Part shown: positions 4,988 through 62,323 of the stretch, piece by piece | How the letters are laid out: each line of letters opens with the position of its first letter | How positions within the stretch are numbered: position 1 is the stretch's first letter | NCBI GenBank assembly: GCA_021788365.1 | Contig: JAJYKS010000005.1 | Location: 14,754 to 78,753 of the forward strand | Source of the DNA: a bacterium | GTDB lineage: Bacteria; Patescibacteriota; Microgenomatia; UBA1400; UBA12108 | DNA: 64,000 nt | Reading direction: 5' to 3' | Translations under genes and position numbers: made by a program | The notes under the pieces: generated by a model | Told to the model about the DNA's origin: nothing | Seen by the model: only the letters and a program-made list of their open reading frames with translations | Databases searched by the model: none

Positions 4988-5599
4988 CTACAGTAGAAGC
5001 TTGAGGATTCCGCTAATTATCGGAGAAATGAGTGAGGCTATTGCGGAGCTGCCGCCAAACGGGAAGATTAGAAGTATAAGAATGATGGTTCCGTATTGTT
5101 GCATAATACCGGTAAATTCGACAGCTAGGTTGCCTGGTAGGAGACCAAGAAGGATTTTCTCACCGTCTAGAGGATAAACGGGGACGAAGTTGAAGACGGC
5201 GAGCATCACGTTCAGGGCAAGGATGGGGGTTGCGATGGCAAGGAGTAGAGGGTTTGGCACCAGGCGTACGAGCCCAGCCAGCGCTCCCGCTAAAATAAGA
5301 TTGCTTGCCGGCCCGGCAAGCGCTATCAAGGCGCCGTCCCGCTTGGGATTTTGTAGATTGTAGGGGTCGAAGGGTACTGGGCGTCCCCAGCCGAAACCGA
5401 CCAGGAGTAGGGTGAGGGTACCGAGGGGATCGAGATGGGCGAGGGGATTCACCGTGAGCCGTCCCATGGCACGGGCGGTGGGGTCGCCGAGGCGGTCTGC
5501 AACCCAGGCGTGAGCGAATTCATGAATCGATATGGCTACGACCAGTGCGAGGGCGTAGACCACGAAGACGAGGGGGTCGGAAAAAAGAGTAGAGAGCAT
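4988..5599 (-). CDS. Site-2 protease family (M50) zinc metalloprotease, SpoIVFB-like, no PDZ
   Basis: HEFAHA zinc motif in TM helix 1, multi-TM, LDG motif (VYPLDGEKIL). Start moved to ATG at 5599 (MLSTLF...), because the ORF-track N-terminus (to 5719) only translates the intergenic repeat element. Confidence 0.8.
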   Translation of the reverse strand: MLSTLFSDPLVFVVYALALVVAISIHEFAHAWVADRLGDPTARAMGRLTVNPLAHLDPLGTLTLLLVGFGWGRPVPFDPYNLQNPKRDGALIALAGPASNLILAGALAGLVRLVPNPLLLAIATPILALNVMLAVFNFVPVYPLDGEKILLGLLPGNLAVEFTGIMQQYGTIILILLIFPFGGSSAIASLISPIISGILKLLL

Positions 5600-5621
5600 G
5601 TTTCTAGTATAACCCACGGCT

Positions 5622-5723
5622 CGTCGTATTCCCAAGTGAAAAACCGGTCTGTCTGCGACTGGTGTCGCAGCGACCTTGTGCTCGGACCAGTCCTGCGCAA
5701 TATTTTTCTTTGTGAACACGACT
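5622..5723. repeat. Copy 1 of ~100-nt structured intergenic element (candidate ncRNA/cis-RNA)
   Basis: Near-identical to 57202-57303 and homologous to 26949-27078. Contains nested inverted repeats (GGTC..CTGCGAC-tggtg-GTCGCAG..GACC; GGACcaGTCC) enclosed by an outer helix GTCGTATTC/GAACACGAC. Lies 23 nt upstream of the M50 protease start. Confidence 0.75.
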
Positions 5724-5744
5724 TCGCCTCTTCTTTTAGTAGGC

Positions 5745-5766
5745 GGTGCTCATATATCGCAAAAAT
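5745..5766 (+). promoter_or_regulatory. Conserved 22-nt upstream motif GGTGCTCATATATCGCAAAAAT (copy A)
   Basis: Same 22-mer with 0-4 mismatches at 23225-23246 (upstream of mreB) and 58598-58619 (upstream of folD), all upstream of plus-strand genes. Confidence 0.5.
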
Positions 5767-5810
5767 TTATCGCGAACATATTTTCGTATCTAGTCTCTGA
5801 AAATTGAAAA

Positions 5811-5839
5811 TTGACAAATGAAAATTGAATTGGTATACT
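5811..5839 (+). promoter_or_regulatory. Sigma-70-type promoter (TTGACA-17nt-TATACT)
   Basis: Perfect -35 TTGACA (5811-5816), 17-nt spacer, -10 TATACT (5834-5839). The predicted TSS is ~2-3 nt before the ATG at 5849 (near-leaderless). Confidence 0.65.
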
Positions 5840-5848
5840 ATGGGCCAT

Positions 5849-6469
5849 ATGAAAAAACTCTGCGCCGCCTTGGCGGTTCTTTTCGTTAGCATGTTTGTTT
5901 CCACTAGCAAGGTCTCTGCTCACGAGGGTGACATCGCCATGAGTGGGGCAAATGTGTCCTGCACCGCAATATCCCTATGGCAGAGTGGTCAGTATCAGGT
6001 GACCGGCCGATGTGATGGGCTCGTTTATCCATATCAGACACAGTACGACCGCTATATGTTGTGGGCAAAAACTGCCGGAAGTGGTGACATTGTCCCTGTC
6101 GGAGAGATTGCCCGTGGCTATTTCCAAGGTTTTGTTGGCAATGCTTTTACTACGCTTTTCGTAACAGCCGAGACCTCTAGCAATCCACACCGTCCTAGTT
6201 CGTACCAGGTTGCTTCTGGTAGCGTCACACCTTTTACCTTTGAGAAGACAGCCGCTGCTACGCCCGCACCTGCCTCTACCGAAACTACCAATACAAGTAC
6301 GACCATGACCGTGCAGCAAGCGGCTAGTTCTACGAGTACTTCGGGGAGCACCGTAGGCGCAGTTGTGGGCAAGATTGTAACTTCTCTCCTCGTCATTATC
6401 CTCGTTATCGTAGGGGTCGCGATCGGCGCCTCCCTTATCTTCCGCAGCAGGGGTAGCGTTTCCGCCTAA
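5849..6469 (+). CDS. Secreted/membrane-anchored Thr/Ser-rich hypothetical protein
   Basis: N-terminal signal peptide (MKKLCAALAVLFVSMFVSTSKVSA), low-complexity T/S-rich linker, C-terminal TM helix plus basic tail. Start chosen at 5849 downstream of the promoter; the ORF track begins at a TTG at 5825. Confidence 0.6.
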   Translation: MKKLCAALAVLFVSMFVSTSKVSAHEGDIAMSGANVSCTAISLWQSGQYQVTGRCDGLVYPYQTQYDRYMLWAKTAGSGDIVPVGEIARGYFQGFVGNAFTTLFVTAETSSNPHRPSSYQVASGSVTPFTFEKTAAATPAPASTETTNTSTTMTVQQAASSTSTSGSTVGAVVGKIVTSLLVIILVIVGVAIGASLIFRSRGSVSA

Positions 6470-9326: not shown

Positions 9327-10298
9327 TTAATCATTTAGATAATACTTTGTAAAGTCACCCCAAGTGATGGGTTTGGGTTTACCAGCGATAAGGATCTCGG
9401 GAGTTGCATACCTGGTATGTGATCTGGTGAGGACGAGGGTGAGGCGAAGGTTGCCTTTTTTGGTCGGGCAAATGGTCCAGACACCCGGCCACGGGGTTAG
9501 TGCCCGGCAGAGCCGGGCAATTTCCAATGACCAATTTTCAATTTTCAAGTGTTGTGTTTTTATTTTTGCTAATCGCAATTTGAGGAGCAGGTTGGTGGTT
9601 TCATCAGGGGCAATGGGTTGATTCGCAAGGAGTTTTTGGACAACGGGCCATTCAACATAACCGGAGTCGCGGGTAAAGCGTTTTGCATAGACTAGGACCT
9701 CTTTTTCCTGGTGTTGTGACTGCGCGCTGGGAACGGGTTTACCGCTAATGTAGTCTGCTACGAGCCCTGCACCTCGAGCAAAAAGCTCGGTGAGGAGGTC
9801 TGGAGCTCCTATTCCTGGTGGGGTGGGTATCTTTTCTTGCGCGACGACTTTACCGGTATCCACGCCTTCGTCGATCGTGAAAATGCTGACGCCAGTTGTT
9901 GTGTCGCCTAACGCAAGCGCATAGGGAACAGGTGCTACGCCGCGGTATTGGGGGAGGAGTGAGGGGTGAATGTTGAGAATACTTTTTAGGAATGTTTTGA
10001 TTAGCGGGGAGGGAAGAATGTGACCAAAAGAGGCGACCAAACCATACTCGTAATGATATGATTTGAGCATATCAATAAAATTGCTCATTTCTTCACTTTT
10101 TTCTGGATAATATATTACTTTTATATTTTGCGTGATGGCTAGTTTTTCAACGGGGTTGGGCTCTCGCTTTTGCTCGCGACCTTTGGGTTTCCCTCGGTCG
10201 GTCACCACAGCTAAAATCGCGATGTTTTGATCATCGATTATCCGCTGCAGCACTATCGCAGAATACTGATCGACGCCAAAAAAGATAAGAGAATGCAT
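9327..10298 (-). CDS. fmt: Methionyl-tRNA formyltransferase
   Basis: N-terminal formyltransferase core with NIHPSLLPQYRGVAPV (SLLP..RG motif), ~320 aa with a C-terminal Fmt-type domain. Contains an in-frame (AATTTTC)n stretch at 9533-9550. Confidence 0.85.
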   Translation of the reverse strand: MHSLIFFGVDQYSAIVLQRIIDDQNIAILAVVTDRGKPKGREQKREPNPVEKLAITQNIKVIYYPEKSEEMSNFIDMLKSYHYEYGLVASFGHILPSPLIKTFLKSILNIHPSLLPQYRGVAPVPYALALGDTTTGVSIFTIDEGVDTGKVVAQEKIPTPPGIGAPDLLTELFARGAGLVADYISGKPVPSAQSQHQEKEVLVYAKRFTRDSGYVEWPVVQKLLANQPIAPDETTNLLLKLRLAKIKTQHLKIENWSLEIARLCRALTPWPGVWTICPTKKGNLRLTLVLTRSHTRYATPEILIAGKPKPITWGDFTKYYLND

Positions 10299-23103: not shown

Positions 23104-23164
23104 GGGTAGAGTATATCAGGATTATTTGTTGGGGATTGCTTGTACTATTTTTTACTAGGATTGC

Positions 23165-23246
23165 GCTCCTTTCAGGAAAAATATGCTTGCATGACAAGCG
23201 CGCTACGCATATTTTTCTTGAATAGGTGCTCGTATACGTAAAAAAT
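23165..23246 (+). promoter_or_regulatory. ~80-nt conserved upstream element (copy B): GCTCCTTTCAGGAAAAAT ...60 nt... GGTGCTCGTATACGTAAAAAAT
   Basis: Both sub-motifs, and the internal CG.ATTTTyCTTG, recur with the same ~59-60-nt spacing at 58539-58619 upstream of folD. Lies 89 nt upstream of the mreB start. Confidence 0.5.
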
Positions 23247-23334
23247 CCCACTCACAATCTCCCTGATATTCTTTGATGTTTTATGATTGGGTAAAATGAC
23301 GATAATTACCAGATATGTTATCATGCAAACGCTT

Positions 23335-26895: not shown

Positions 26896-26948
26896 ACTGC
26901 GAGATTATACCGCTGGTGTACGAGTTTCGGCAATATTATCTACTTATC

Positions 26949-27078
26949 ACGGTTTACCAAATTCCCAAGTGAAAAACCGGTCTGTCTGCGCCTGCTGGCG
27001 CAGCGACCTTATGCTCGCCCAGCCGTTCGCGAGCAGCTGGGCTGCGCAATATTTTTATTGTGAATATTGGTAAACCGT
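26949..27078. repeat. Copy 2 of structured intergenic element (with extra internal helix and perfect 12-bp outer stem)
   Basis: Shares TTCCCAAGTGAAAAACCGGTCTGTCTGCG...GCGCAATATTTTT with copies 1 and 3. Hairpin 1 is CTGCGCC-tgct-GGCGCAG (compensated). Hairpin 2 is replaced by GCCCAGC-cgttcgcgagca-GCTGGGC. Outer stem ACGGTTTACCAA/TTGGTAAACCGT. Lies ~70 nt upstream of efp and overlaps the stop of gene 27078-27653. Confidence 0.75.
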
Positions 27079-27653
27079 TATCTCTCAGCTGTGAGCGTGA
27101 GCCACGTGTCGGAAGTGGTGGAGCAGGCGGCGGGCTGCGTCTGGACTTTGAGGTAATCAAGACCGGAGACGGACTTTAACGTACCTGATCCGGAAATCTG
27201 GGTCTGGGCGATGACTTCCTCACCATTACTCTTCCAGGCCGTCACGTTAGCACTGTAGCCGTCTTTTAGCGAGTACTTGAGGGTGAGGGGTCCGGTTATA
27301 TCCTTAATTTCTGTCATGTAACTTTGTGAGCAGTCACTCGTTTTCACCAGGGTGAGAGTGAGGTGCGTTGTCGTGGTTGTTGTTGTCGTGACAGTACTTG
27401 TGGAGGCACCTTTAACGAGACCACCTTTGGTTGTAGGTACGTAGGTTCGTGCTGGGACATAGGGTGTTGCGGTGGGGGTAGGCGTGGGGGTGGGTGTTGG
27501 AGTTGGGGAGGGGGTCGCTGATACCATGGGCGACGGTGAGGGGGAAGTAAATCTGCTCACGAGTGAGGGGGCAAAGCGTACCGCACCGTAGAGCGCTATC
27601 GCAACAACGAGTACTCCAAAGAAGCCGACGAAGACATATTGTAGTGATTTCAT
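27078..27653 (-). CDS. N-terminally anchored protein with PT-repeat linker (hypothetical, extracellular)
   Basis: N-terminal TM/signal anchor, (PT)n linker, T-rich stretch, and a C-terminal ~110-aa domain with two Cys. Confidence 0.5.
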   Translation of the reverse strand: MKSLQYVFVGFFGVLVVAIALYGAVRFAPSLVSRFTSPSPSPMVSATPSPTPTPTPTPTPTATPYVPARTYVPTTKGGLVKGASTSTVTTTTTTTTHLTLTLVKTSDCSQSYMTEIKDITGPLTLKYSLKDGYSANVTAWKSNGEEVIAQTQISGSGTLKSVSGLDYLKVQTQPAACSTTSDTWLTLTAER

Positions 27654-33662: not shown

Positions 33663-34199
33663 ATGAAACTCATCGTTGGTCTCGGGAATCCGGGAGAGAA
33701 GTATCAAAATAATCGGCACAATGCAGGATTTATGGTCGTCGACGCGCTAGCAAAGCTGGCGCAATTTTCAATTTTCAATTTTCAATTTTCAAAAAAATTT
33801 GATTCAGAAGTGATGCAAACACCTGATATTTTGTTGGCGAAGCCACAGACATTTATGAACGACAGCGGAGTTGCGGTCGCGGCACTTTGCCACTTTTATA
33901 AAGTGAAGTATGAAGACCTCTATATTGTCCACGACGATCTTGATATACAGCTCGGTAACTACAAGATCCAGCATGGCAAGGGGCCAAAGGTACACAATGG
34001 GTTGCGATCGGTAGAAGAGAAGTTGGGTACGGAAAAATTTTGGAACGTACGGATAGGGGTAGAGAACCGAGCGGTGCGGGGGAACAAAGGGGTGCCGGGA
34101 GTGGTATATAGCTTGCAGGATTTTACGGAGGATGAGCGGGTTATATTGAACGGTGTTGTTCGAGATGCAGCTGGGGAGTTGTTGACACACCTTCGGTAG
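33663..34199 (+). CDS. pth: Peptidyl-tRNA hydrolase
   Basis: MKLIVGLGNPGEKYQNNRHNAGF...HNGLRS motifs. -10-like TATACT (33650-33655) sits 7 nt upstream of the ATG (leaderless candidate). Contains an in-frame (CAATTTT)4 insertion encoding FSIFNFQFS. Confidence 0.9.
   Translation: MKLIVGLGNPGEKYQNNRHNAGFMVVDALAKLAQFSIFNFQFSKKFDSEVMQTPDILLAKPQTFMNDSGVAVAALCHFYKVKYEDLYIVHDDLDIQLGNYKIQHGKGPKVHNGLRSVEEKLGTEKFWNVRIGVENRAVRGNKGVPGVVYSLQDFTEDERVILNGVVRDAAGELLTHLR
33762..33785. repeat. (CAATTTT)n tandem microsatellite inside pth
   Basis: caattttcaattttcaattttcaa. Related arrays occur at 9533-9550 (inside fmt) and, as the reverse complement tgaaaattgaaaattga, at 5798-5833 (promoter region). Confidence 0.8.
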
Positions 34200-40231: not shown

Positions 40232-40996
40232 TTTACAAGGATGATTCCTGTACCCTTTAAGGTGGCTACTCTAAGACTAAGTATTTATTGCCGGACTTTA
40301 GATCGAGCGGCTCCTCGACAAAATGTTGGTACGAATTCTTGGGATTCGTTTTCGAAAAGTATGTGAGGATGTTTTCGGGATGTACCCAGGGTTGATGTAT
40401 ATAGCCTAGGTAGTTTTTGTAGCTTGAATACGGATAACCGGCTAATTTACAGGGATCATCCTTGTAAGATGCCAGTTTTAGGGGGTTGCGGTGGATATAT
40501 TTTGTGAGCCATAGAAATTGGTTTTCTTGCTCTACCATTACTGCCTTGTAGATGCCTTGGAATAAATGCCCGACTCGGGAGTATTTTTTATTGAAATACA
40601 TGGAGTAGCGAGTTCCTAGTGAGCGCATAAAACGGTTCATGGAGTCCTTGTTTACTTGTCGTAACAGAAGATGAAAGTGGTTGGGCATGAGGCAGTAGGA
40701 GACGAGCTCGATAGTTTTTTCGTGGTTATTTGGTTGGCGAGAGGGGGCGTAGATTACTTTTTGGATATCTGACAGGGATGATCCTTGTAAAGTGCGGGCA
40801 AGGCGATGGTCTACTGGTTTTGATGGGGTAAGGTAGAGCTTAAGACACCCTAGGAAAGTAACGTAATCTTTTTCGTCGAGAAAAATATCGCGTTTCTCCA
40901 CCCCGCGGTTGTAGATGTGATAATAGGTGTGATCGACGTAGGTTTTTTGACTGTTCTTTGGTGGCATGATAGTTTACAGGGATCATCCCTGTAAAC
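40232..40996. mobile_element. RAYT (REP-associated tyrosine transposase) unit with flanking REP palindromes
   Basis: The Y1-HuH transposase gene is flanked by TTACAAGGATGATTCCTGTA (40233-40252) and the perfect palindrome TTTACAGGGATCATCCCTGTAAA (40974-40996). Further copies occur inside the gene (40447-40467, 40771-40792) and at 45734-45755. Confidence 0.7.
40266..40967 (-). CDS. IS200/IS605-family Y1 (HuH) transposase, RAYT-type
   Basis: YHIYNRG...YCLMPNHFHLL (HuH)...YIHRNP plus a C-terminal extension with the YPYSSY motif typical of REP-associated tyrosine transposases. 233 aa. Confidence 0.75.
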   Translation of the reverse strand: MPPKNSQKTYVDHTYYHIYNRGVEKRDIFLDEKDYVTFLGCLKLYLTPSKPVDHRLARTLQGSSLSDIQKVIYAPSRQPNNHEKTIELVSYCLMPNHFHLLLRQVNKDSMNRFMRSLGTRYSMYFNKKYSRVGHLFQGIYKAVMVEQENQFLWLTKYIHRNPLKLASYKDDPCKLAGYPYSSYKNYLGYIHQPWVHPENILTYFSKTNPKNSYQHFVEEPLDLKSGNKYLVLE

Positions 40997-41014
40997 TATG
41001 GTATAGTCTTTACG

Positions 41015-45620: not shown

Positions 45621-45733
45621 TGTAGTAAAGCATTTTAAATAGGCGTTTGCAACGCGGCAAACGGTATCAGATACCCGCCTACGAGGACAGTCCTCGCAGG
45701 CTCGGATACCTGCTACCTGATTAGCGGCACATC

Positions 45734-45755
45734 TTACAGGGATGATCCCTGTAAA
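45734..45755. repeat. REP palindrome TTACAGGGATGATCCCTGTAAA (orphan copy)
   Basis: Same palindrome family as the RAYT-flanking REPs 4.7 kb upstream. Confidence 0.75.
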
Positions 45756-45809
45756 GTGCAAGCCTCTTGACCTTGGAAATCTGGGCTACACGAGGGCAGG
45801 TTGTAACCC

Positions 45810-55936: not shown

Positions 55937-57154
55937 TCAATTTTTCGCTAGTATTTCTGCAATTTTTCTTGCAACTTCAAGGAAGTCATTCTCTTTGTAA
56001 CCGCGGGTGGTGAGGAATGGGGAGCCGAGGCGGAGGCCGGAAGGGTTCCACGGCTTGCCGGACTCGAGGGGGACGGTATTTTTGTTCGCAATGATCTCGA
56101 CTTTTTCCAACGCGTTTTGGGCGTCTTTGCCGGTCCAGCCGCGGGAGCGGAGGTCGACGAGCACGAGATGTTTATCCGTGCCGCCGGAGACCACGTCGAA
56201 GCCGAGCTTCATGAGCTCGTCGGCTAGGGCCTGTGCGTTTTTGACGCACTGAGCTGCGTACCGCTTGAACTCCGGTTGCATGGCTTCGTGGAGCGCCACG
56301 CCGATGCCGGCAATTGAGTGGTTTTGTGGGCCGCCCTGCAGGCCAGGGAAAACGGCAAAGTCGATCTTGTCGGCGATGTCGTCACCAAGGAGTTTTTTAC
56401 TGGCGAAAATCATGGCGCCCACTGGGCCGCGGAGCGTTTTCCTGGTGGTCATCGTGACGAGGTGGGCGTAGGGGAAGGGACTACTGTTTGCGCCGCCCGC
56501 CACGAGGCCGGCTTCGTGGGCAATGTCGGCCATGTAGAGGGCACCGACCGTGTCGGCGATCTCGCGCATTTTTTTATGATCGATCTCTCGGGGGTAGGCG
56601 GTGCCGCCGGAGATGAGGATCTTGGGCTGTACCGCTTTGGCACGCGCCAGCACTTCGCCGTAATCAAAAACACGGGTTTCTTTGTTTACCGTATAAAAAT
56701 GGGTGTCATAGAGGCGGGAGGTGAAGCTAATAGGCTTACCTGTATCCGGCAGCTTCCAGCCGTGGGAGAGGTGGCCGCCGTCGTAAAGATTCATGCCCAG
56801 CATGCGATCACCGGGATTCATGACCGCCGTATAGGTGGCAAAGTTGGCGATCGCGCCGGTCGGGGGCTGCACGTTCACGTGCCACTCCGTATCTGCCAGG
56901 CCGAAAGCCTGCAAGGCACGGGACTCGGTTAAGCTTTCGATTTGATCGATGAACTGGTTGCCGGGATAGTAGCGCTTGTACGGCTGACCCTCGCTGTATT
57001 TGTTCATGAGCACAGAGCCGACCGCTTCTCGTACCGCGTCGGAGACCACGTTCTCGGAGGGGATGAGCTCGAGATCTTTTTCTTGGCGAGCCTCTTCGGA
57101 CTGTATGAGATTGTAGATTTCGGGGTCGGTTTTTTGCAGTGCGGAGTTGGTCAT
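55937..57154 (-). CDS. glyA: Serine hydroxymethyltransferase
   Basis: Full-length SHMT including the PLP-lysine region VTMTTRKTLRGP (cf. canonical TTTHKTLRGPRGG). Confidence 0.95.
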   Translation of the reverse strand: MTNSALQKTDPEIYNLIQSEEARQEKDLELIPSENVVSDAVREAVGSVLMNKYSEGQPYKRYYPGNQFIDQIESLTESRALQAFGLADTEWHVNVQPPTGAIANFATYTAVMNPGDRMLGMNLYDGGHLSHGWKLPDTGKPISFTSRLYDTHFYTVNKETRVFDYGEVLARAKAVQPKILISGGTAYPREIDHKKMREIADTVGALYMADIAHEAGLVAGGANSSPFPYAHLVTMTTRKTLRGPVGAMIFASKKLLGDDIADKIDFAVFPGLQGGPQNHSIAGIGVALHEAMQPEFKRYAAQCVKNAQALADELMKLGFDVVSGGTDKHLVLVDLRSRGWTGKDAQNALEKVEIIANKNTVPLESGKPWNPSGLRLGSPFLTTRGYKENDFLEVARKIAEILAKN

Positions 57155-57201
57155 GATGATTATTATACCTCGTGATATTTTGCTTTCACGCTACAAAAGC
57201 T

Positions 57202-57303
57202 CGCCGTATTCCCAAGTGAAAAACCGATCTGTCTGCGGCTGGTGCCGCAGCGATCTTGTGCTCGGATCAATCCTGCGCAATATTTTTCTTTGTGAACACG
57301 GCT
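57202..57303. repeat. Copy 3 of structured intergenic element
   Basis: ~90% identical to copy 1, with compensated changes in every helix: outer GCCGTATTC/GAACACGGC, GATC/GATC, CTGCGGC/GCCGCAG, GGATcaATCC. Lies ~50 nt upstream of the glyA start and is followed on the plus strand by CTTTTTT. Confidence 0.75.
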
Positions 57304-57387
57304 TCGCTTTTTTAACGCTACCGTTGCGAGACATACCAACATGTTTCAGGAATGTGTATTGGGGCAGGGCGTACAATAACTCATAGT

Positions 57388-58494
57388 ATGAACGATCAAG
57401 TTTTGCCAGTACCAAAGTGGAATATCCCCATAGATTCTCCATTTCTTGGGAAGCGGGATTTCTTGCGGGACGACGGGCAGCCGTTTTGGGAATATCTTTC
57501 GGCGCATGAGATACCCTTTGATAAAGACGATTTTCCTTTCCTCACCAACCACAAGGTGCCCAAGGTAAAGGAACTCTTTGATTTTTCCCAATTTATGGCG
57601 CTTACGGGTAAGGGTGAAGCACTTTCACGTCTCTATGGCTCGATGGGTAGAGCGTGGGACTATGTGGGACCTGTCCTCGATTCTGAGTTTAAGCATGGGT
57701 TTAACGATCATACCGATCGGCACACATTGTGGGTAACGCAAAATACGGTGGAGCTCTTACAACGCGCGGGTCATAGTTGGGGCAACCACGGGGGTAAGTA
57801 CGACGCAGAGACGGAAGTCTTGGCAACGCTCGTGGGGATGACCCATGACCTTGGTAATTTTGTATCGCGAAAAGTACACTCCATGTACTCTGCGTGGCTC
57901 CTGACGCGGCTTTTTTACAACACCGCAGCGCGGCAGCAAGAGTGGAACGCTGCGATGTTTACTATTCTCTTTCACGAAGAGCCAATGCTTGCGGACCTCC
58001 ACGTAAATCTCTCAGACGGTTTGCCCTTGCAATGGGCCCTCGTGGCTGCAGACAAGATGCATGTCGGGCGAGACCGCATAGGCGACAGGTCGTATGAGTC
58101 GGGGGTACGGAACCATGCTTTGGAGGAAGATGTTCACATTCTTCTCAACGCGCTTGTTGCCCGTAGTGCGTGGGTACTGTCGGCCTCGGCCTTTGTATGG
58201 CACCTGGACTTTGAGGTAGAGCAACTTGAGGAAAAGTTTGCAAGCTTTACCCGGAACGGCAAAATCTGGATGCCGCCTGACTTTTACGACAAATATCGCG
58301 CCGGGCAGCCGTATCGTGAGATTTTTGCAGAACTCTTTCTATCAGTGTACGAAGCGCGGATACGGATGGCAGCGACGTCTATTTTTCTTTTATTTCCCTA
58401 TATTAACAAGTTTCAAGTGTTCTTGTCGGACGCAAAACGAAGTCCAGGGACGACGCCACCTGGGGAAATGTTGGTTTGTGAAGTCGTAAGATAA
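57388..58494 (+). CDS. HD-domain phosphohydrolase-like protein
   Basis: H...HD pattern (DHTDRHTLWV ... THDLGN). Start at internal ATG 57388. Confidence 0.45.
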   Translation: MNDQVLPVPKWNIPIDSPFLGKRDFLRDDGQPFWEYLSAHEIPFDKDDFPFLTNHKVPKVKELFDFSQFMALTGKGEALSRLYGSMGRAWDYVGPVLDSEFKHGFNDHTDRHTLWVTQNTVELLQRAGHSWGNHGGKYDAETEVLATLVGMTHDLGNFVSRKVHSMYSAWLLTRLFYNTAARQQEWNAAMFTILFHEEPMLADLHVNLSDGLPLQWALVAADKMHVGRDRIGDRSYESGVRNHALEEDVHILLNALVARSAWVLSASAFVWHLDFEVEQLEEKFASFTRNGKIWMPPDFYDKYRAGQPYREIFAELFLSVYEARIRMAATSIFLLFPYINKFQVFLSDAKRSPGTTPPGEMLVCEVVR

Positions 58495-58538
58495 GTGATT
58501 TGCCTGTTAATATTGCGTATATTTTTGCTAACGACTCC

Positions 58539-58619
58539 GCTCCTTTCAGGGAAAATCTTCCTTACTCGCTTTGCTTGTGCGTCGATTTTCCTTGGGCGGT
58601 GCTCATATATCGCAAAAAT
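58539..58619 (+). promoter_or_regulatory. ~80-nt conserved upstream element (copy C) ending 34 nt before folD
   Basis: GCTCCTTTCAGGGAAAAT ...59 nt... GGTGCTCATATATCGCAAAAAT, co-linear with 23165-23246. TATAAT at 58641-58646 lies 6 nt before the folD ATG (leaderless candidate). Confidence 0.5.
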
Positions 58620-58652
58620 ACATGCAATATTACATGGCGATATAATGGAGGT

Positions 58653-59438
58653 ATGTTATTTGATGGGAAACAGTTTGCACGTGAGATAGAAGAACAGGTG
58701 GGTGCGCACGTAACCAGTCTTGTACGGGCACCGAAGGTGGTAAGTATTCTTGTGGGAGACGACCCAGCGAGCGAACTCTATACACGACTCAAGAAACAGG
58801 CAGCGGAGCGAGTGGGGGTAGACTTTGCAGTAAAAAAATACACCACTGAAAAAGTGAAAAATTTGGAAGCAGAGATCGCGGAATTGGGGGCGCGGGAGGA
58901 TGTGACTGGCGTGATGGTGCAACTGCCGCTGCCAGAGCCACTTAGGGGTTTCTCCTCTAAGTATATCAAAATGATACCACTTACAAAAGACGTCGACGGA
59001 TTACGATGGGAAGAATCCAAGATTATGCCGGCGACGGTGCGCGCAATTCTTTCCGTTCTGGAAAGAATTGCTAAGGATTCTAGAAGAGAGATACTAGATT
59101 CTAGATTTGTCGTCGTGGGAGCAAGAGGCTCTGTGGGGAGACCGCTGGCGCACTACTTGCGAGAGCGGAGGATAGAGGTTGCGGAGGTGGAGTGGGACAC
59201 GCCGGATCCGGCGAAGATAACGCGAGGGGGCGATGTTGTTATTTCTTGTACAGGGAAGGCGGGGATAGTTACGGGGGGAATGGTAAAAAACGGTGTTGTA
59301 GCTCTCGATGTTGGCTCGCCAAAGGGAGATATGACACAAGAAGTGTATGAGAAGGCGTCGGTTGCTGTACCTGTGCCTGGTGGGGTGGGGCCGGTGACGA
59401 TCGCTTGCCTTATGGCAAATGCTTTAGATCTATTTTGA
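58653..59438 (+). CDS. folD: Bifunctional methylenetetrahydrofolate dehydrogenase/cyclohydrolase
   Basis: ASELYTRLKKQAAERVG, MVQLPLPEP, VVGARGSVGRPLA Rossmann motif, PVPGGVGPVT. Confidence 0.9.
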   Translation: MLFDGKQFAREIEEQVGAHVTSLVRAPKVVSILVGDDPASELYTRLKKQAAERVGVDFAVKKYTTEKVKNLEAEIAELGAREDVTGVMVQLPLPEPLRGFSSKYIKMIPLTKDVDGLRWEESKIMPATVRAILSVLERIAKDSRREILDSRFVVVGARGSVGRPLAHYLRERRIEVAEVEWDTPDPAKITRGGDVVISCTGKAGIVTGGMVKNGVVALDVGSPKGDMTQEVYEKASVAVPVPGGVGPVTIACLMANALDLF

Positions 59439-59462
59439 TTTCTTTTGATATTTTTGTAACTA

Positions 59463-59491
59463 TTGACCGATGTGTATTTATTACGCATAAT
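59463..59491 (+). promoter_or_regulatory. Sigma-70-type promoter TTGACC-17-CATAAT
   Basis: -35 at 59463-59468, 17-nt spacer, -10 at 59486-59491. Drives the small ORF at 59528. Confidence 0.5.
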
Positions 59492-59527
59492 TCTGTTTCG
59501 TCACATGTCTAGTGAAAGGAGTTTTTT

Positions 59528-59764
59528 ATGTTATTTGCAGTGGAATTTCAACATTTAGCGAACACGTACCAGGATCCTAATACCCAACCGGGTAGCGCTA
59601 ATGATGGTGGCGGGATTGGTAGAGCTGGTGGCTATAGAGATCACGGCCCAAAAGATAAGTTCTGTAGTTTCTTTTTGGAGCCAATCGCTCCAGCGTTAAT
59701 ATGGGCTTTATCCCCGATCGCGGAAAATTTGCACCTTCCACCCATGAACCCACGGACATTGTGA
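59528..59764 (+). CDS. Small Gly-rich hypothetical protein (78 aa)
   Basis: SD AAAGGAG 7 nt upstream of the ATG, with its own promoter upstream. No known domain. Confidence 0.4.
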   Translation: MLFAVEFQHLANTYQDPNTQPGSANDGGGIGRAGGYRDHGPKDKFCSFFLEPIAPALIWALSPIAENLHLPPMNPRTL

Positions 59765-59769
59765 TATAA
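59761..59769 (+). promoter_or_regulatory. Extended -10 promoter element (TGaTATAAT) for rpsB, followed by structured ~85-nt leader
   Basis: TGATATAAT at 59761-59769. The leader contains hairpin GTCCTCC-caa-GGAGGAC (59829-59845) just 5' of SD AAGGAGA (59849-59855). Confidence 0.45.
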
Positions 59770-59859
59770 TTCCAGGGTTATTTATTTCGCATCTAGAGAT
59801 GATCTCCTGACAAAGAATCTCTAGAGAGGGTCCTCCCAAGGAGGACAGAAGGAGACACT

Positions 59860-60717
59860 ATGCCAGCAAAGAAAGCTGCTGTAAAACCGAAGGCCGAGAA
59901 GGTCACCAAACCGAAAGTTGAGAAAGCTGTAAAGACCGTTGTCGAAGTGAAGAAGGATGGGGAAGCGGAAGTAGCCAAGGTTGCCAAACAGGAAGCTCCA
60001 AAGAAAGTGTCGTACGATGTTGCCGACTTGCCCAGTCTCAAGGATATGCTTGAGGCAGGGGTACATTTTGGGCACTCTGTGAAGCGTCGTAACCCCAGAA
60101 TGGACGAGTATGTGTACGCGGTGAAAAACGGTGTACAGATTTTTGATCTCATAAAGACTCGTGACATGCTTGCCGAGGCGTGCGGATATCTCATGCAGAC
60201 GGTAGCAGACGGGGGGCAAGTCCTCTTGGTAGGTACCAAGGGTCAGGCTGCTGAAACGGTGAAATCTGAGGCGGAACGCTTGGGAATACCGTTTATTACT
60301 ACCCGTTGGGTTGGTGGGCTTTTTACCAATTGGGATCAGCTTAAGAATCGTATAACCAGGCTTGTAGATATGCGTAAGAAAATGGAAGCGGGTGACTATA
60401 AAAAATACACGAAAAAGGAGCAAGTGCTCCTCAAACGTGAGATAGACCGTCTTACTCGCATGTATGGTGGCCTCGTTCCCATGGAAAAGCTACCGGCGGC
60501 AATATTTATTGTAGATCCCAACCGTGAGATAACGGCTGTGCGTGAGTCTATTGCCCGTGGTGTACCTATTGTGGCCATTGCCGATTCTAACGCTAACCCC
60601 CAGCCTCTGACGCGCGTTATCCCTGCAAATGACGACGCCTTAAAATCGGTCGTCATGCTCGTGAAAGCGGTGACCGGCGCAATCGAGCGGGGGCAGAAAG
60701 CACAGAAAAAAGCATAA
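59860..60717 (+). CDS. rpsB: 30S ribosomal protein S2 with ~50-aa Lys/Ala-rich N-terminal extension
   Basis: MLEAGVHFGH, RWVGGLFTNW, IADSNANP. The N-terminal PAKKAAVKPKAEKVTKPKVEKAVK extension is histone-H1-like. Confidence 0.95.
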   Translation: MPAKKAAVKPKAEKVTKPKVEKAVKTVVEVKKDGEAEVAKVAKQEAPKKVSYDVADLPSLKDMLEAGVHFGHSVKRRNPRMDEYVYAVKNGVQIFDLIKTRDMLAEACGYLMQTVADGGQVLLVGTKGQAAETVKSEAERLGIPFITTRWVGGLFTNWDQLKNRITRLVDMRKKMEAGDYKKYTKKEQVLLKREIDRLTRMYGGLVPMEKLPAAIFIVDPNREITAVRESIARGVPIVAIADSNANPQPLTRVIPANDDALKSVVMLVKAVTGAIERGQKAQKKA

Positions 60718-60760
60718 TAGATTTCTCGGGGAGAGAATCTAGAAAATAGGAGAACAAGAT

Positions 60761-61207
60761 ATGCAGATAACCATGGAACAGATAAAGAAACTTCGTGAAG
60801 AGACAGGCGCTGGTGTCATGGACGTGCGAAAAGCCCTGACCGAGAGTAAAGGCGACGAGGCGAAAGCTCGCGAGTGGATCAAACAAAAAGCGATGGTGCG
60901 TGCAGAGGAGAAGTCCGAGCGCGAGACCGCCGAGGGCTACGTCTTTTCCTATGTGCACTTTAACGGCAAGGTGGGTGCACTGATTAAGCTTGCGTGCGAG
61001 ACAGACTTTGTAGCCAAGACCGAGGACTTTCAGCACCTGGGCAAAGAACTTGCGATGCAAGTTGCTTCGATGAAACCCAAAGATGTTACAGAACTTCTTT
61101 CACAAGACTATCTCCGCAACCCTGGCGAGACCGTGGAGCAGCTTGTGAAAGCCGTTTCCGGTAAAACGGGTGAGAACGTAAAAATCCTCGCCATCTCGAT
61201 GTTATAA
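60761..61207 (+). CDS. tsf: Elongation factor Ts (short form)
   Basis: N-terminal UBA-like LREETGAGVMDVRKALTES and C-terminal dimerisation-core remnant. 148 aa. Confidence 0.9.
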   Translation: MQITMEQIKKLREETGAGVMDVRKALTESKGDEAKAREWIKQKAMVRAEEKSERETAEGYVFSYVHFNGKVGALIKLACETDFVAKTEDFQHLGKELAMQVASMKPKDVTELLSQDYLRNPGETVEQLVKAVSGKTGENVKILAISML

Positions 61208-61243
61208 CGAGTAGACGCAGGGGTTCATGGTATTATTGGTGAC

Positions 61244-62323
61244 ATGATCGTCACGATTATTGTTTTATCCCTGTTGGTATTGTTGCATGAGCTGGGTCAT
61301 TTTCTTATCGCGAAGCTGTTTGGCATAAAGGTAGAAGAGTTTGGTATAGGTTTACCTCCAAAAGCCATGACGATTACCAGGCTTGGTGAAACCGAGTATA
61401 CCCTCAACTGGCTCCCCATCGGTGGGTTTGTGCGGCTTATGGGGGAGACAGAGGACCCTACACTCTTCCAACGACTTAATCCTGCAACTCGATCGCGCGC
61501 TTTTTTCGCAAAACCGGCGTGGCAGCGTACCTTGGTTCTTTTGGCTGGCGTCACGATGAATATCCTTATCGGGATCGTTCTTTTTTCCGTCATTTATGCG
61601 CGCCTGGGGGTTCCGCAGTACGCCGGGAGCCAAGTCGTTGTGGCGGATGTTGTTAGGGGAACTCCGGCGGATCTTGCAGGTCTTAAGCAAGGCGATGTTG
61701 TGACCGGGATCGCCGACGGGGCAGCTACGACGGCTGATCAATTTGTGCGATACGTGAACGCACATAAAGGACAGCTGACTACCTTTTATGTCGCCCCCTT
61801 GCTTGCAGACGGGACCGTATCTCCTTCGTCTAAACAAGTCCAAGTAATACCGAGAGAGAATCCACCGGCGGGGCAGGGAGCCCTTGGAGTCTCCGTAGAG
61901 AGTCTCCCGATTGTGACGTACAAACATTTTCCTTGGTACCAGGCGCCGTTTTACGGTACCGTGGAGGGACTTAAAGAGACGTATGGGTGGACAGTAATGT
62001 TTATCGGTATCCTTTCACATCCTAAAGAACTACTGTCGAATGTGGGTGGGCCGGTAAAGGTAGTTCAGGTGGGATCACAGGCCGTTGCCGAGGGATGGGT
62101 CGCTCTTTTGCGATTTGCCGCTATCATCTCGCTCAACCTTGGTATTTTTAATTTGCTCCCCATTCCAGCCTTGGATGGTGGGCGGGTCGCGATGGTCATT
62201 CTAGAAAAGTTTATCGGTCGCAAACGTGTCGCGAAGGTTGAGGGCTATGTGAATGCTGTGGGGATGGGCTTCCTTATACTGCTCCTCGTCGCGGTTACGG
62301 TGAAAGATGTGTTTTTTGGGTAG
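61244..62323 (+). CDS. rseP: RIP metalloprotease RseP (M50 with PDZ)
   Basis: HELGH in TM1, PDZ domain (GDVVTGIADG), C-terminal NLLPIPALDGG. Confidence 0.9.
   Translation: MIVTIIVLSLLVLLHELGHFLIAKLFGIKVEEFGIGLPPKAMTITRLGETEYTLNWLPIGGFVRLMGETEDPTLFQRLNPATRSRAFFAKPAWQRTLVLLAGVTMNILIGIVLFSVIYARLGVPQYAGSQVVVADVVRGTPADLAGLKQGDVVTGIADGAATTADQFVRYVNAHKGQLTTFYVAPLLADGTVSPSSKQVQVIPRENPPAGQGALGVSVESLPIVTYKHFPWYQAPFYGTVEGLKETYGWTVMFIGILSHPKELLSNVGGPVKVVQVGSQAVAEGWVALLRFAAIISLNLGIFNLLPIPALDGGRVAMVILEKFIGRKRVAKVEGYVNAVGMGFLILLLVAVTVKDVFFG

What the first reader, a model, noticed from the sequence alone, without database searches (positions are those of the whole stretch)
57202..57303. Copy 3 of the element between divergent glyA and an HD-domain gene
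~90% identical to copy 1, yet every difference inside a helix is compensated. It lies ~50 nt upstream of glyA. On the plus strand the closing stem is followed by CTTTTTT, so it could also terminate or insulate the divergent region. glyA leaders often carry regulatory RNAs, but this sequence does not resemble the ZTP/pfl or glycine riboswitch consensus, and the same element precedes efp and a protease.
Basis: partly seen in the sequence, partly recalled or inferred. Interest (0 to 1): 0.55.

Follow-up and report, generated by a model that had tools for sequence, protein, structure and literature searches.

The report
Dispersed structured RNA-like repeat, not glyA switch
The sequence upstream of glyA is a real copy of a small family of about 120-base elements found only in a few related Microgenomates (CPR) genomes, whose three-armed fold is kept intact by matched mutations, but it lies outside the predicted glyA mRNA and is missing at glyA in a close relative, so it is not a glyA-specific regulator.

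Summary
Window 57195-57312 is one of three copies in the window (also 5615-5732 and 26948-27078). It is 91% identical to copy 1, and nearly every difference is compensated.

I found the family at three more loci in related Microgenomates assemblies. Across 7 sequences, 22 of 43 pairs change on both sides and 95% of cells stay paired. G-U pairs outnumber A-C mismatches 20 to 7, which points to the window's minus strand, the sense of the gene that follows.

The fold is a three-way junction:
- P1 is a long closing helix that covaries.
- P2 is a hairpin of variable length.
- P3 is a bulged hairpin that is almost invariant in sequence.

The glyA-leader reading fails on three counts:
- A sigma-70-like promoter lies between the element and the glyA ATG, and genes here are mostly leaderless.
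- A relative with 96% identical glyA lacks the element there, yet keeps it upstream of the M50 protease gene.
- Rfam has no match, and the junction has almost no unpaired bases.

My best reading is a lineage-restricted, oriented, dispersed structured RNA module at boundaries between transcription units. It behaves like REP, ERIC, BOX or Correia repeats. Its biochemical role (termination, processing or insulation) is inferred, not shown.

The "HD-domain" label on the neighbouring gene is unsupported. The family is new, the kind is known, and interest is moderate.

The parts
57195..57312 (-). Element copy 3 (the finding), read on the minus strand, which is the sense of glyA. It folds as a three-way junction.
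   Evidence: Model hit of 147 bits, E 6e-38. Fold energy -50.6 kcal/mol, z -5.5. Repeat family D1/D2.
57282..57310 (-). P1 5' strand of copy 3: outer helix AAAGC, a GAA internal loop, then GCCGUGUUC.CAA.GAAAAAU.
   Evidence: Consensus structure. P1 pairs covary across the family (helices 1-3).
57256..57280 (-). P2, the variable hairpin (UUGCGCAGG-AUUGAU-CCGAGCACAA). It is 16 nt longer in copy 2.
   Evidence: The CGCAG...CCGAG flanks are conserved while the tip varies with compensation.
57226..57255 (-). P3, the sequence-conserved bulged hairpin GAUCGCUGCGGC-ACCA-GCCGCAGACAGAUC. It has two bulged A's.
   Evidence: 9 of 12 P3 pairs are invariant in 7 sequences and 2 covary. The pattern GGTCGCTGCGnCAnCAGnCGCAGAnAGACC is present in the L020, L025 and L026 copies; copy 3 itself has A-U in place of the second G-C pair (GAUC...GAUC).
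57196..57224 (-). P1 3' strand of copy 3 (GUUUUUC..UUG.GAAUACGGC, GA loop, GCUUU).
57162..57189 (-). Predicted glyA promoter (GTGAAA-16-TATAAT), lying between the element and the ATG. The -10 box ends 7 nt before the ATG, so the mRNA is leaderless.
   Evidence: TATAAT is kept in front of glyA in three relatives.
55937..57154 (-). glyA (serine hydroxymethyltransferase), the gene downstream of copy 3.
   Evidence: Pfam SHMT, 1.4e-153.
57388..58494 (+). Divergent 368-aa gene with no recognisable domain. It is not an HD-domain protein by Pfam or NCBIfam.
   Evidence: Start inferred from TACAAT 10 nt before the ATG and the 368-aa orthologue in L004.
5615..5732 (-). Element copy 1, upstream of the M50 peptidase gene (4988-5599, minus strand). 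This is the copy conserved at the same locus in relatives.
   Evidence: 143 bits. Orthologous copies: L025:9060-9183 (1 nt different), L019, and L020:3998-4127.
26948..27078 (-). Element copy 2. It begins right after the TAA stop (27078-27080) of a 191-aa gene and ends about 14 nt before the efp promoter.
   Evidence: 112 bits. Sequence. Promoter TTGCCG-18-TATAAT at 26933-26904.

Best explanation
Copy 3 belongs to a small family of dispersed intergenic elements, about 120-135 nt long, restricted to a narrow Microgenomates (CPR) lineage.

Shown:
- The elements fold on the strand co-directional with the gene that follows (the window's minus strand).
- The fold is an almost loop-free three-way junction. 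P1 is a long closing helix of about 22-25 bp that covaries freely, P2 is a hairpin of variable length, and P3 is a bulged hairpin with nearly invariant sequence.
- Pairing is maintained by selection.
- Copies come and go between close relatives. The M50-linked copy is old, while the glyA and efp copies are absent from a close relative.
- The element lies upstream of the predicted promoter of the next gene, so it is not part of the glyA mRNA made from that promoter.

Inferred:
- It works as a self-contained RNA module at the boundary between transcription units.
- It would fold on transcripts that read in from upstream. In tandem loci these come from the preceding gene, because the element starts at that gene's stop codon. 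In divergent spacers they would come from divergent or pervasive transcription.
- It would then end, process or stabilise those transcripts before they cross the next, mostly leaderless, promoter. Possible means are hairpin-dependent termination, RNase III-type cleavage of the long P1, or a protein bound to P3.
- In genomic behaviour it resembles REP/BIME, ERIC, BOX and Correia repeats.
For: Family and structure:
- There are three copies in the window and four more in relatives: L025:9060, 14181 and 19007, and L020:3998.
- 22 of 43 pairs change on both sides and 95% of cells are paired. 0 of 500 shuffles reach this, and slid controls give 31-44% paired.
- In pairwise comparisons, L020 vs L025:19007 shows 15 compensated pairs and 0 uncompensated double changes.

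Strand:
- 20 G-U cells on the sense strand against 7 A-C cells. The 6 A-C cells in P2 sit in its base, where the model probably misaligns the diverged subtype.
- The sense strand folds better (-63 kcal/mol, z -8.1) than the antisense strand (-60, z -6.0) in L020.

Position:
- Promoters predicted between the element and the next gene at glyA, efp and the 215-aa gene, and overlapping the element's 3' end at the window's M50 copy.
- The upstream stop codon abuts the element at the 191aa-efp and secE-nusG loci.
- Leaderless architecture is dominant in the window.

Not gene-specific: absent at glyA in L004-L007, L016 and L017, and absent next to the efp promoter in L012-L015. The same MAG as L004 keeps the M50 copy.

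A second structured repeat family, with a fragment of it beside copy 1, gives the spacers a mosaic (BIME-like) make-up.
Against: - There are no expression data, so transcription of the sense strand is inferred only.
- In four of six loci the element lies between divergent genes, with no annotated transcript reading into it.
- In L020 and at L025:14181 it fills the space between the two back-to-back core promoters.
- No conserved U-tract follows P1 on the sense strand, and the terminator scan finds nothing at the element ends.
- Most leaderless promoters in the window have no such element, so it cannot be a general requirement.
- Only 6 distinct loci were found, and the alignment used for pair counts was fitted to the model.
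- One strain (L019) carries an uncompensated G-to-C change in the base of P3.
Confidence: 0.4

Rival explanations
1. A multi-copy family of small independent non-coding RNA genes of about 120 nt. Each copy would be transcribed from its own weak promoter. The RNA would act in trans or as a protein-binding RNA, with P3 as the functional hairpin.
For: - Covariation is as strong as in established structured RNAs, and the core is conserved in sequence while the closing helix varies.
- G-U asymmetry points to an RNA strand.
- Every copy keeps its structure, so none looks like a decaying pseudogene.
- In L020 a sense promoter-like site (TTCATA-16-TACAAT) lies about 15 nt upstream of the element.
- An A/T-rich stretch precedes every copy.
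Against: - No promoter is conserved in sequence or spacing upstream of the six loci, and the L020 site is not conserved in the window.
- In two loci the upstream stop codon touches the element, leaving no non-coding room for a promoter.
- There is no terminator on the sense strand.
- Copies at glyA and efp are dispensable in a close relative.
Confidence: 0.25
2. A selfish, non-autonomous mobile DNA element of the MITE, REPIN or IS200/605 hairpin type. The hairpin would be needed as single-stranded DNA for mobilisation, or kept by palindrome self-correction during replication. It would have no function for the host.
For: - Copies are dispersed in intergenic DNA, and presence differs between genomes that are 96-99% identical in the flanking genes.
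- Subfamilies exist.
- Assemblies of relatives break at one such spacer.
- The window encodes a RAYT-like Y1 transposase at 40266-40967.
- G-T wobbles are also tolerated in single-stranded DNA, so the strand asymmetry does not exclude DNA.
Against: - The termini are the least conserved part and the internal P3 hairpin the most conserved. This is the opposite of MITEs defined by terminal inverted repeats.
- No target-site duplication is visible, and there is no clean empty site. The relatives' spacers are replaced wholesale, within recombination-like mosaic tracts where glyA is 92% identical against 98% for its flanks.
- The palindromes flanking the RAYT-like gene are a different sequence.
- Conserved bulges, G-U pairs and the branched shape argue against simple palindrome homogenisation.
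- The folding strand is the C-rich strand by GC skew. If the skew marks replication direction, that is the leading-strand template, not the strand exposed as lagging template. This last point is a weak inference.
- No copy shows random decay.
Confidence: 0.2
3. A cis-regulatory leader (riboswitch-like or protein-binding) that controls glyA, efp, M50 and nusG from a distal promoter in response to a common signal.
For: - Every copy is in the sense of the gene immediately downstream and within about 15-95 nt of its start.
- The M50 association is conserved across three lineages.
- No confident promoter was predicted between the element and the Shine-Dalgarno-led nusG.
Against: - Promoters are predicted between the element and the start codon at glyA and efp, and overlapping the element's 3' end at M50, in a mostly leaderless genome.
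- No Rfam family matches even at E<=10.
- The junction has only 0-2 unpaired bases per strand, and P1 is too long and stable to act as a switch helix.
- The downstream genes are functionally unrelated.
- The element is absent at glyA in all four relatives examined.
Confidence: 0.07

Closest known systems
ERIC/IRU, BOX and Correia (CREE) elements: dispersed intergenic imperfect palindromes of 100-150 nt that act as RNA hairpins
   Same: Similar size, strictly intergenic, several copies per genome, and presence or absence varying between close strains. All fold into long stem-loops when transcribed. They sit at gene boundaries, where they can affect mRNA ends, stability or processing (established knowledge of those families, recalled from memory).
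   Different: There is no sequence similarity: no match in E. coli genomes, plasmids or phages and none in Rfam. The shape is a branched three-way junction rather than a simple hairpin. The internal hairpin is the conserved part and the ends vary. All copies seen have the orientation of the downstream gene. Copy number is low and the host is a CPR bacterium.
REP/BIME and REPIN elements with their RAYT transposases
   Same: Structured extragenic repeats whose pairing is preserved. The spacers are mosaics of different repeat types. A RAYT-like gene is present in the same window.
   Different: REPs are palindromes of 20-40 nt with a 5' GTAG, and REPINs are symmetric doublets. This element is an asymmetric three-armed fold of about 120 nt. 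The palindromes next to the RAYT-like gene (TTTACAGGGATCATCCCTGTAAA) are unrelated to it.
Riboswitch and leader RNAs of one-carbon genes (ZTP/pfl, glycine, THF)
   Same: Located next to glyA, in the sense orientation, with a three-way junction closed by P1 and strong covariation.
   Different: No match to any Rfam model. It is predicted to lie upstream of the promoter. It is not conserved at glyA. It is found at unrelated genes. The junction has almost no unpaired nucleotides to form a ligand pocket.
Intrinsic (including bidirectional) transcription terminators
   Same: A stable hairpin placed right after a stop codon in two loci. Copy 3 has an A-tract and T-tract flanking the stem on both strands.
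   Different: It is much larger and branched, with a conserved internal sequence. The U-tract is not conserved in the family, and the consensus scan does not call it. Four of six loci have no gene reading into it.

Membership tests
Known riboswitch or RNA families (Rfam 15, including ZTP/pfl, glycine, THF) | Match to the family covariance model | tested here: not met
   The whole window at gathering score gives only a tRNA. Region 57100-57400 at E<=10 gives 0 matches.
Riboswitch or cis-regulatory leader | Lies within the 5' UTR, between the transcription start and the start codon of the regulated gene | tested here: not met
   Predicted promoters lie between the element and the ATG at glyA and efp and overlap its 3' end at M50. 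The -10 box sits 6-9 nt before the ATG in most genes. This rests on prediction only, with no start-site mapping.
Riboswitch or cis-regulatory leader | Conserved association with the same gene class in relatives | tested here: not met
   Absent at glyA in L004-L007 (96% aa) and in L016 and L017 (about 80%). Conserved only at M50, and absent there at about 65% identity.
MITE (derived from a transposon with terminal inverted repeats) | Conserved terminal inverted repeats and a target-site duplication | tested here: not met
   The outer P1 is the most variable part, with all 5 outer pairs covarying. No direct repeat flanks the copies by inspection.
MITE or mobile element | A clean empty site in a relative | tested here: not met
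   At glyA about 175 nt, including the promoter, are replaced by about 90 nt of unrelated sequence. At efp, homology stops at the -35 box and the relatives' contigs end 82 nt upstream of the ATG.
MITE or dispersed repeat | Several dispersed copies, with copy content varying between close genomes | tested here: met
   3 copies in 64 kb of the window and 3 in 20 kb of L025. The glyA copy, and by the available sequence the efp copy, are missing in relatives 96-99% identical in those proteins.
REP/REPIN-RAYT | Short palindromes of the same sequence flanking a RAYT gene | tested here: not met
   The RAYT-like gene at 40266-40967 is flanked by unrelated 22-nt palindromes. The same holds for the L020 homologue.
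Intrinsic terminator | A G+C-rich stem followed directly by a U-tract, conserved among copies | tested here: not met
   No site is called at the element ends in the six loci scanned. The plus-strand CTTTTTT of copy 3 is not conserved. The scan only counts simple hairpins, so termination activity itself remains untested.
Independent small RNA gene | Own promoter and defined 3' end | tested here: inconclusive
   The only promoter-like site upstream in sense is in L020. None is found in the window or L025 loci. No expression data are available.
Structured RNA in general | Covariation supporting the helices, with a strand-specific G-U signature | tested here: met
   22 of 43 pairs covary, 95% of cells are paired, and 0 of 500 shuffles reach this. 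G-U 20 against A-C 7.
Integron attC array | Closely spaced same-orientation sites separating promoterless cassettes next to intI | tested here: not met
   Copies are 21 and 30 kb apart, among housekeeping genes that have their own promoters.

The most novel reading that the evidence does not exclude
The family is a previously undescribed class of functional small RNA specific to a Microgenomates (CPR) lineage. It would be a compact three-way-junction RNA whose invariant bulged hairpin P3 binds a protein or has its own activity. It would be kept in several copies per genome under purifying selection and able to seed new copies, possibly through an RNA intermediate.
Probability: 0.25. Interest if true: 0.65.

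Novelty: new member of a known kind. Interest (0 to 1): 0.4.

Why it matters
CPR bacteria have tiny genomes with little non-coding DNA, and almost nothing is known about their non-coding RNAs or how they separate transcription units.

A multi-copy element whose three-armed fold is preserved by many compensatory changes is a well-supported candidate for a functional RNA module in these organisms. It sits exactly between transcription units in a genome that mostly uses leaderless mRNAs.

It also has practical consequences. Public gene calls extend the M50 protease ORF by 40 codons through the element. Four assemblies of a close relative also break in the corresponding efp spacer, although no copy was seen in the sequence that remains there.

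For glyA regulation it matters in the negative sense, because this is not a new one-carbon riboswitch.

Tried and rejected
**Database searches**
- The 19-mer CGGTTTTTCACTTGGGAAT was scanned against the genome collection (3 hits), the metagenome collection (4 hits) and viral contigs (0 hits). All hits were chance matches with no further similarity.
- The P3 core pattern found nothing in viral contigs.
- BLAST against plasmids, phages and E. coli genomes gave no match.

**Riboswitch or known RNA**
- Rfam at gathering score and at E<=10 gave nothing.

**Small ORF or type I toxin**
- The reading frames through the element are broken by the 16-nt P2 insertion in copy 2, and the differences are not synonymous-biased (by inspection).
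- The 243-aa 'M50' ORF is a gene-calling artefact.

**Structural motifs**
- A K-turn at the GAA/GA internal loop of P1 was rejected. The loop is 3x2, not 5x2, and it is replaced by a continuous helix in two loci.
- A P2-P3 kissing loop is possible in copy 1 (CUGG with CCAG) but is not conserved in copy 3 or copy 2.

**Other element types**
- DGR template/variable repeats and integron attC sites do not fit the position or the substitution pattern.
- Target-site duplications and a GTAG signature were looked for. Only a few GTAGs occur in the flanks, and not consistently.

**Dedicated promoter**
- No promoter is conserved upstream on either strand.

**More copies in relatives**
- None were found in L004-L007, L012-L018 or L021-L024.
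- The window's own contig could not be retrieved outside the window.

Full report
**1. Observation**

The stretch 57202-57303 lies inside a repeat of about 118 nt (57195-57312). The repeat finder and a mismatch search recover three copies in the window, all in one orientation: 5615-5732, 26948-27078 and 57195-57312. Shuffled sequence gives no such matches.

Copy 3 is 91% identical to copy 1. Both strands fold far better than dinucleotide shuffles, with z about -5.4.

Pfam confirms that the minus-strand genes next to the three copies are an M50 peptidase, efp and glyA. The divergent 368-aa gene beside copy 3 has no HD domain, and no other family, in Pfam or NCBIfam.

Copies 1 and 3 differ at 12 positions:
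- five compensated pairs, one of them in the tip of P2;
- one change that keeps a pair through G-U;
- one difference at the outermost pair.

**2. Organism and gene architecture**

The glyA, efp and M50 homologues place the window in the Microgenomates group of the CPR, near Collierbacteria.

In the window, most genes that follow a spacer carry a TATAAT- or TATACT-like hexamer ending 6-9 nt before the ATG, with no Shine-Dalgarno sequence. The same holds in front of glyA in three relatives. This is the signature of leaderless mRNAs.

The promoter scan places sigma-70-like promoters as follows:
- glyA: 57189-57162, between the element and the ATG.
- efp: 26933-26904, between the element and the ATG.
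- M50: 5635-5606, with the -35 box inside the end of the element.

On these predictions the element is upstream of the glyA promoter, not in a glyA leader.

**3. Relatives**

Both large pattern scans (genome and metagenome collections) used an invariant 19-mer and returned only chance hits. Relatives were therefore reached through proteins.

*glyA locus.* MAG GCA_021839925.1 (L004) and three sister contigs have glyA 96% identical in protein, flanks 98% identical in DNA and the same gene order. Their glyA spacer holds unrelated sequence and no element. Two relatives with about 80% identical glyA also lack it.

*efp locus.* In the relative with 99% identical efp, homology to the window stops at the -35 box. 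Four independent assemblies all break 82 nt upstream of the ATG.

*M50 locus.* Here the picture is the opposite.
- The same MAG (L025) has the element, with one loop difference from the window's copy.
- A relative with 79% identical M50 (L020) has a diverged but clearly homologous copy at the same place.
- Relatives at about 65% identity have no room for it or lack it.

*Further copies.* L025 carries two more diverged copies. One lies between rpmG and a 215-aa gene. The other starts at the secE stop codon and precedes nusG. By synteny these loci fall just beyond coordinate 1 of the window.

The divergence between the window and L004 is mosaic, with glyA at 92% and its neighbours at 98%. The missing glyA copy may therefore reflect allele replacement by recombination rather than a recent insertion. 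Consistent with this, copy 3 differs from copy 1 far more than the two genomes differ at the M50 copy.

**4. Structure**

The seven sequences (six loci) align to a common three-way junction:
- **P1** is a closing helix of about 22-25 bp with small internal loops.
- **P2** is a hairpin of variable length and sequence, 16 nt longer in copy 2. Its conserved flanks are CGCAG...CCGAG.
- **P3** has the sequence GGUCGCUGCG-n-CAsCAG-n-CGCAGAyAGACC, with two bulged A's. It is almost invariant except for one fully covarying pair.

Pair counts:
- 22 of 43 pairs change on both sides.
- 95% of cells are standard pairs.
- No shuffle out of 500 reaches any of the five measures.
- Sliding the partners drops pairing to 31-44%.

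Caveat: this alignment was fitted to the model. However, MAFFT alignments of the window copies show the same compensations.

Strand evidence:
- There are 20 G-U cells on the sense strand against 7 A-C cells. The 6 A-C cells in P2 sit in its base, where the diverged subtype probably pairs differently.
- One-sided changes such as G-U to A-U and G-C to G-U keep pairing only on this strand.
- The sense strand also folds better (vs 6, and 64 vs 65).

The folding strand is thus the window's minus strand, the sense of the gene that follows. G-T wobbles are also tolerated in single-stranded DNA, so this favours RNA but does not prove it.

**5. What it is not**

*Not a known RNA family*.

*Not a riboswitch-like aptamer.* The junction strands are 0-2 nt long, P1 is too long and stable to switch, the downstream genes are unrelated, and it is not conserved at glyA.

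*Not a classical MITE with terminal inverted repeats.* The ends are the most variable part and the interior is the most conserved. No target duplication or clean empty site is seen.

*Not the cognate repeat of the RAYT-like Y1 transposase at 40266-40967.* The palindromes flanking that gene are different.

*Not a canonical intrinsic terminator.* The plus-strand T-run of copy 3 is not a family feature, and the scan calls nothing at the element ends.

*Not coding.* The P2 insertion in copy 2 breaks the frame, and the public 243-aa M50 ORF is an over-extension through the element.

**6. Most likely mechanism**

Shown:
- A dispersed, oriented, structure-constrained element family.
- Placement between a stop codon, or a divergent promoter, and the promoter of the next gene.
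- Turnover of copies between close relatives.

Inferred: the element acts as an RNA module on transcripts entering from upstream.
- In the two tandem loci it would be the immediate 3' UTR of the preceding gene.
- In divergent spacers it could only be transcribed by divergent or pervasive initiation from the neighbour's promoter, or from a weak promoter of its own. One candidate exists in L020.
- A long, stable P1 (fold energies of -50 to -63 kcal/mol for the whole element) and a conserved bulged hairpin suit hairpin-dependent termination, double-strand-specific cleavage or protein binding.
- Any of these would stop read-through from crossing a leaderless promoter, where a leadered transcript without a Shine-Dalgarno sequence would be of little use.

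This is the behaviour known for REP/BIME, ERIC, BOX and Correia repeats (from memory, not tested here). A second structured repeat family in the same spacers, with a fragment of it beside copy 1, adds to the BIME-like picture.

I give this reading a confidence of 0.4. The rivals are:
- an independent multi-copy small RNA (0.25);
- a selfish hairpin-dependent mobile DNA (0.2);
- a true cis leader (0.07).

**7. Novelty and verdict**

The family is absent from Rfam and from every collection I could search, so it is new. Its kind, structured dispersed intergenic repeats or candidate non-coding RNA motifs, is known.

The specific claim attached to copy 3, a possible glyA leader regulator, is not supported. 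The structural observation is fully supported, and it becomes stronger once relatives are added.

Interest is moderate. This is a well-supported candidate structured RNA in a poorly known phylum, with function still open and only six loci in hand.

Noticed in passing
window 58515-58625 (+), about 23140-23250, 5742-5766; L017:4630-4809 (rc): A second family of structured intergenic hairpins of about 100 nt. The conserved parts are CGCTCCTTyCAGGrAAwAT ... ATTTTyCTTGrry GGTGCTCrTATA. It occurs upstream of folD in both the window and a relative with about 80% identical glyA, and in the 23.1-23.3 kb spacer. A 25-nt fragment, 100% identical, lies right beside element copy 1. The folD copy folds at -33.8 kcal/mol, z -5.3, and Rfam has no match. 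It could be a folD-linked regulatory RNA or another dispersed repeat.
   Followed up: partly
window 40266-40967 (-); palindromes at 40444-40472, 40767-40795, 40971-40999, 45731-45759; L020:9636-10395: A RAYT-like Y1 (IS200-like) transposase gene. Pfam Y1_Tnp scores 3.8e-11. NCBIfam REP-associated tyrosine transposase scores 4.4e-11, below its cut-off. It is associated with 22-29-nt perfect or near-perfect palindromes (TTTACAGGGATCATCCCTGTAAA). A homologue in L020 sits next to a tRNA and is flanked by CTTTAAGGGAACATCCCTTAAAG. REP/RAYT systems in CPR bacteria may deserve their own look.
   Followed up: partly
window-wide, e.g. 57162-57154, 26904-26895, 5839-5849, 58640-58655: Most genes that follow a spacer have TATAAT or TATACT ending 6-9 nt before the ATG and no Shine-Dalgarno sequence, so leaderless mRNAs appear to be the main mode. 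Genes inside operons, and nusG in L025, have GGAG-type sites.
   Followed up: partly
window 4988-5719 (-); proteins P0241, P0362, P0363: Public gene calls start the M50 peptidase at a GTG 40 codons upstream, so they translate the structured element (243 aa instead of 203 aa). The ATG at 5599 with its -10 box is the likely true start.
   Followed up: yes
window 5798-5829, 9517-9548, 33761-33792: Phased (GAAAATT)n tracts lie next to promoters, for example directly overlapping the TTGACA -35 box of the 5849 gene. They may be UP-element-like or curved DNA.
   Followed up: no
L012-L015 position 1; window 26936: Four independent assemblies of the relative with 99% identical efp all end at the same base, 82 nt upstream of efp. 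Homology to the window stops exactly at the efp -35 box. This suggests a repeat or strain polymorphism in that spacer.
   Followed up: partly
window 55953-57155 compared with 57335-62197; L004: Divergence from GCA_021839925.1 is mosaic. glyA is 92% identical in DNA while adjacent genes are 98%, and further blocks are 82-93% or unalignable. This points to frequent recombination with diverged alleles, and spacers are replaced wholesale.
   Followed up: no
L019:1229-1374 (ERZ27233560): A strain otherwise 99.9% identical to the window carries a single uncompensated G-to-C change in the base of P3 (GACAGACC to GACACACC) in the M50-linked copy. It is either a polymorphism or an assembly error.
   Followed up: no
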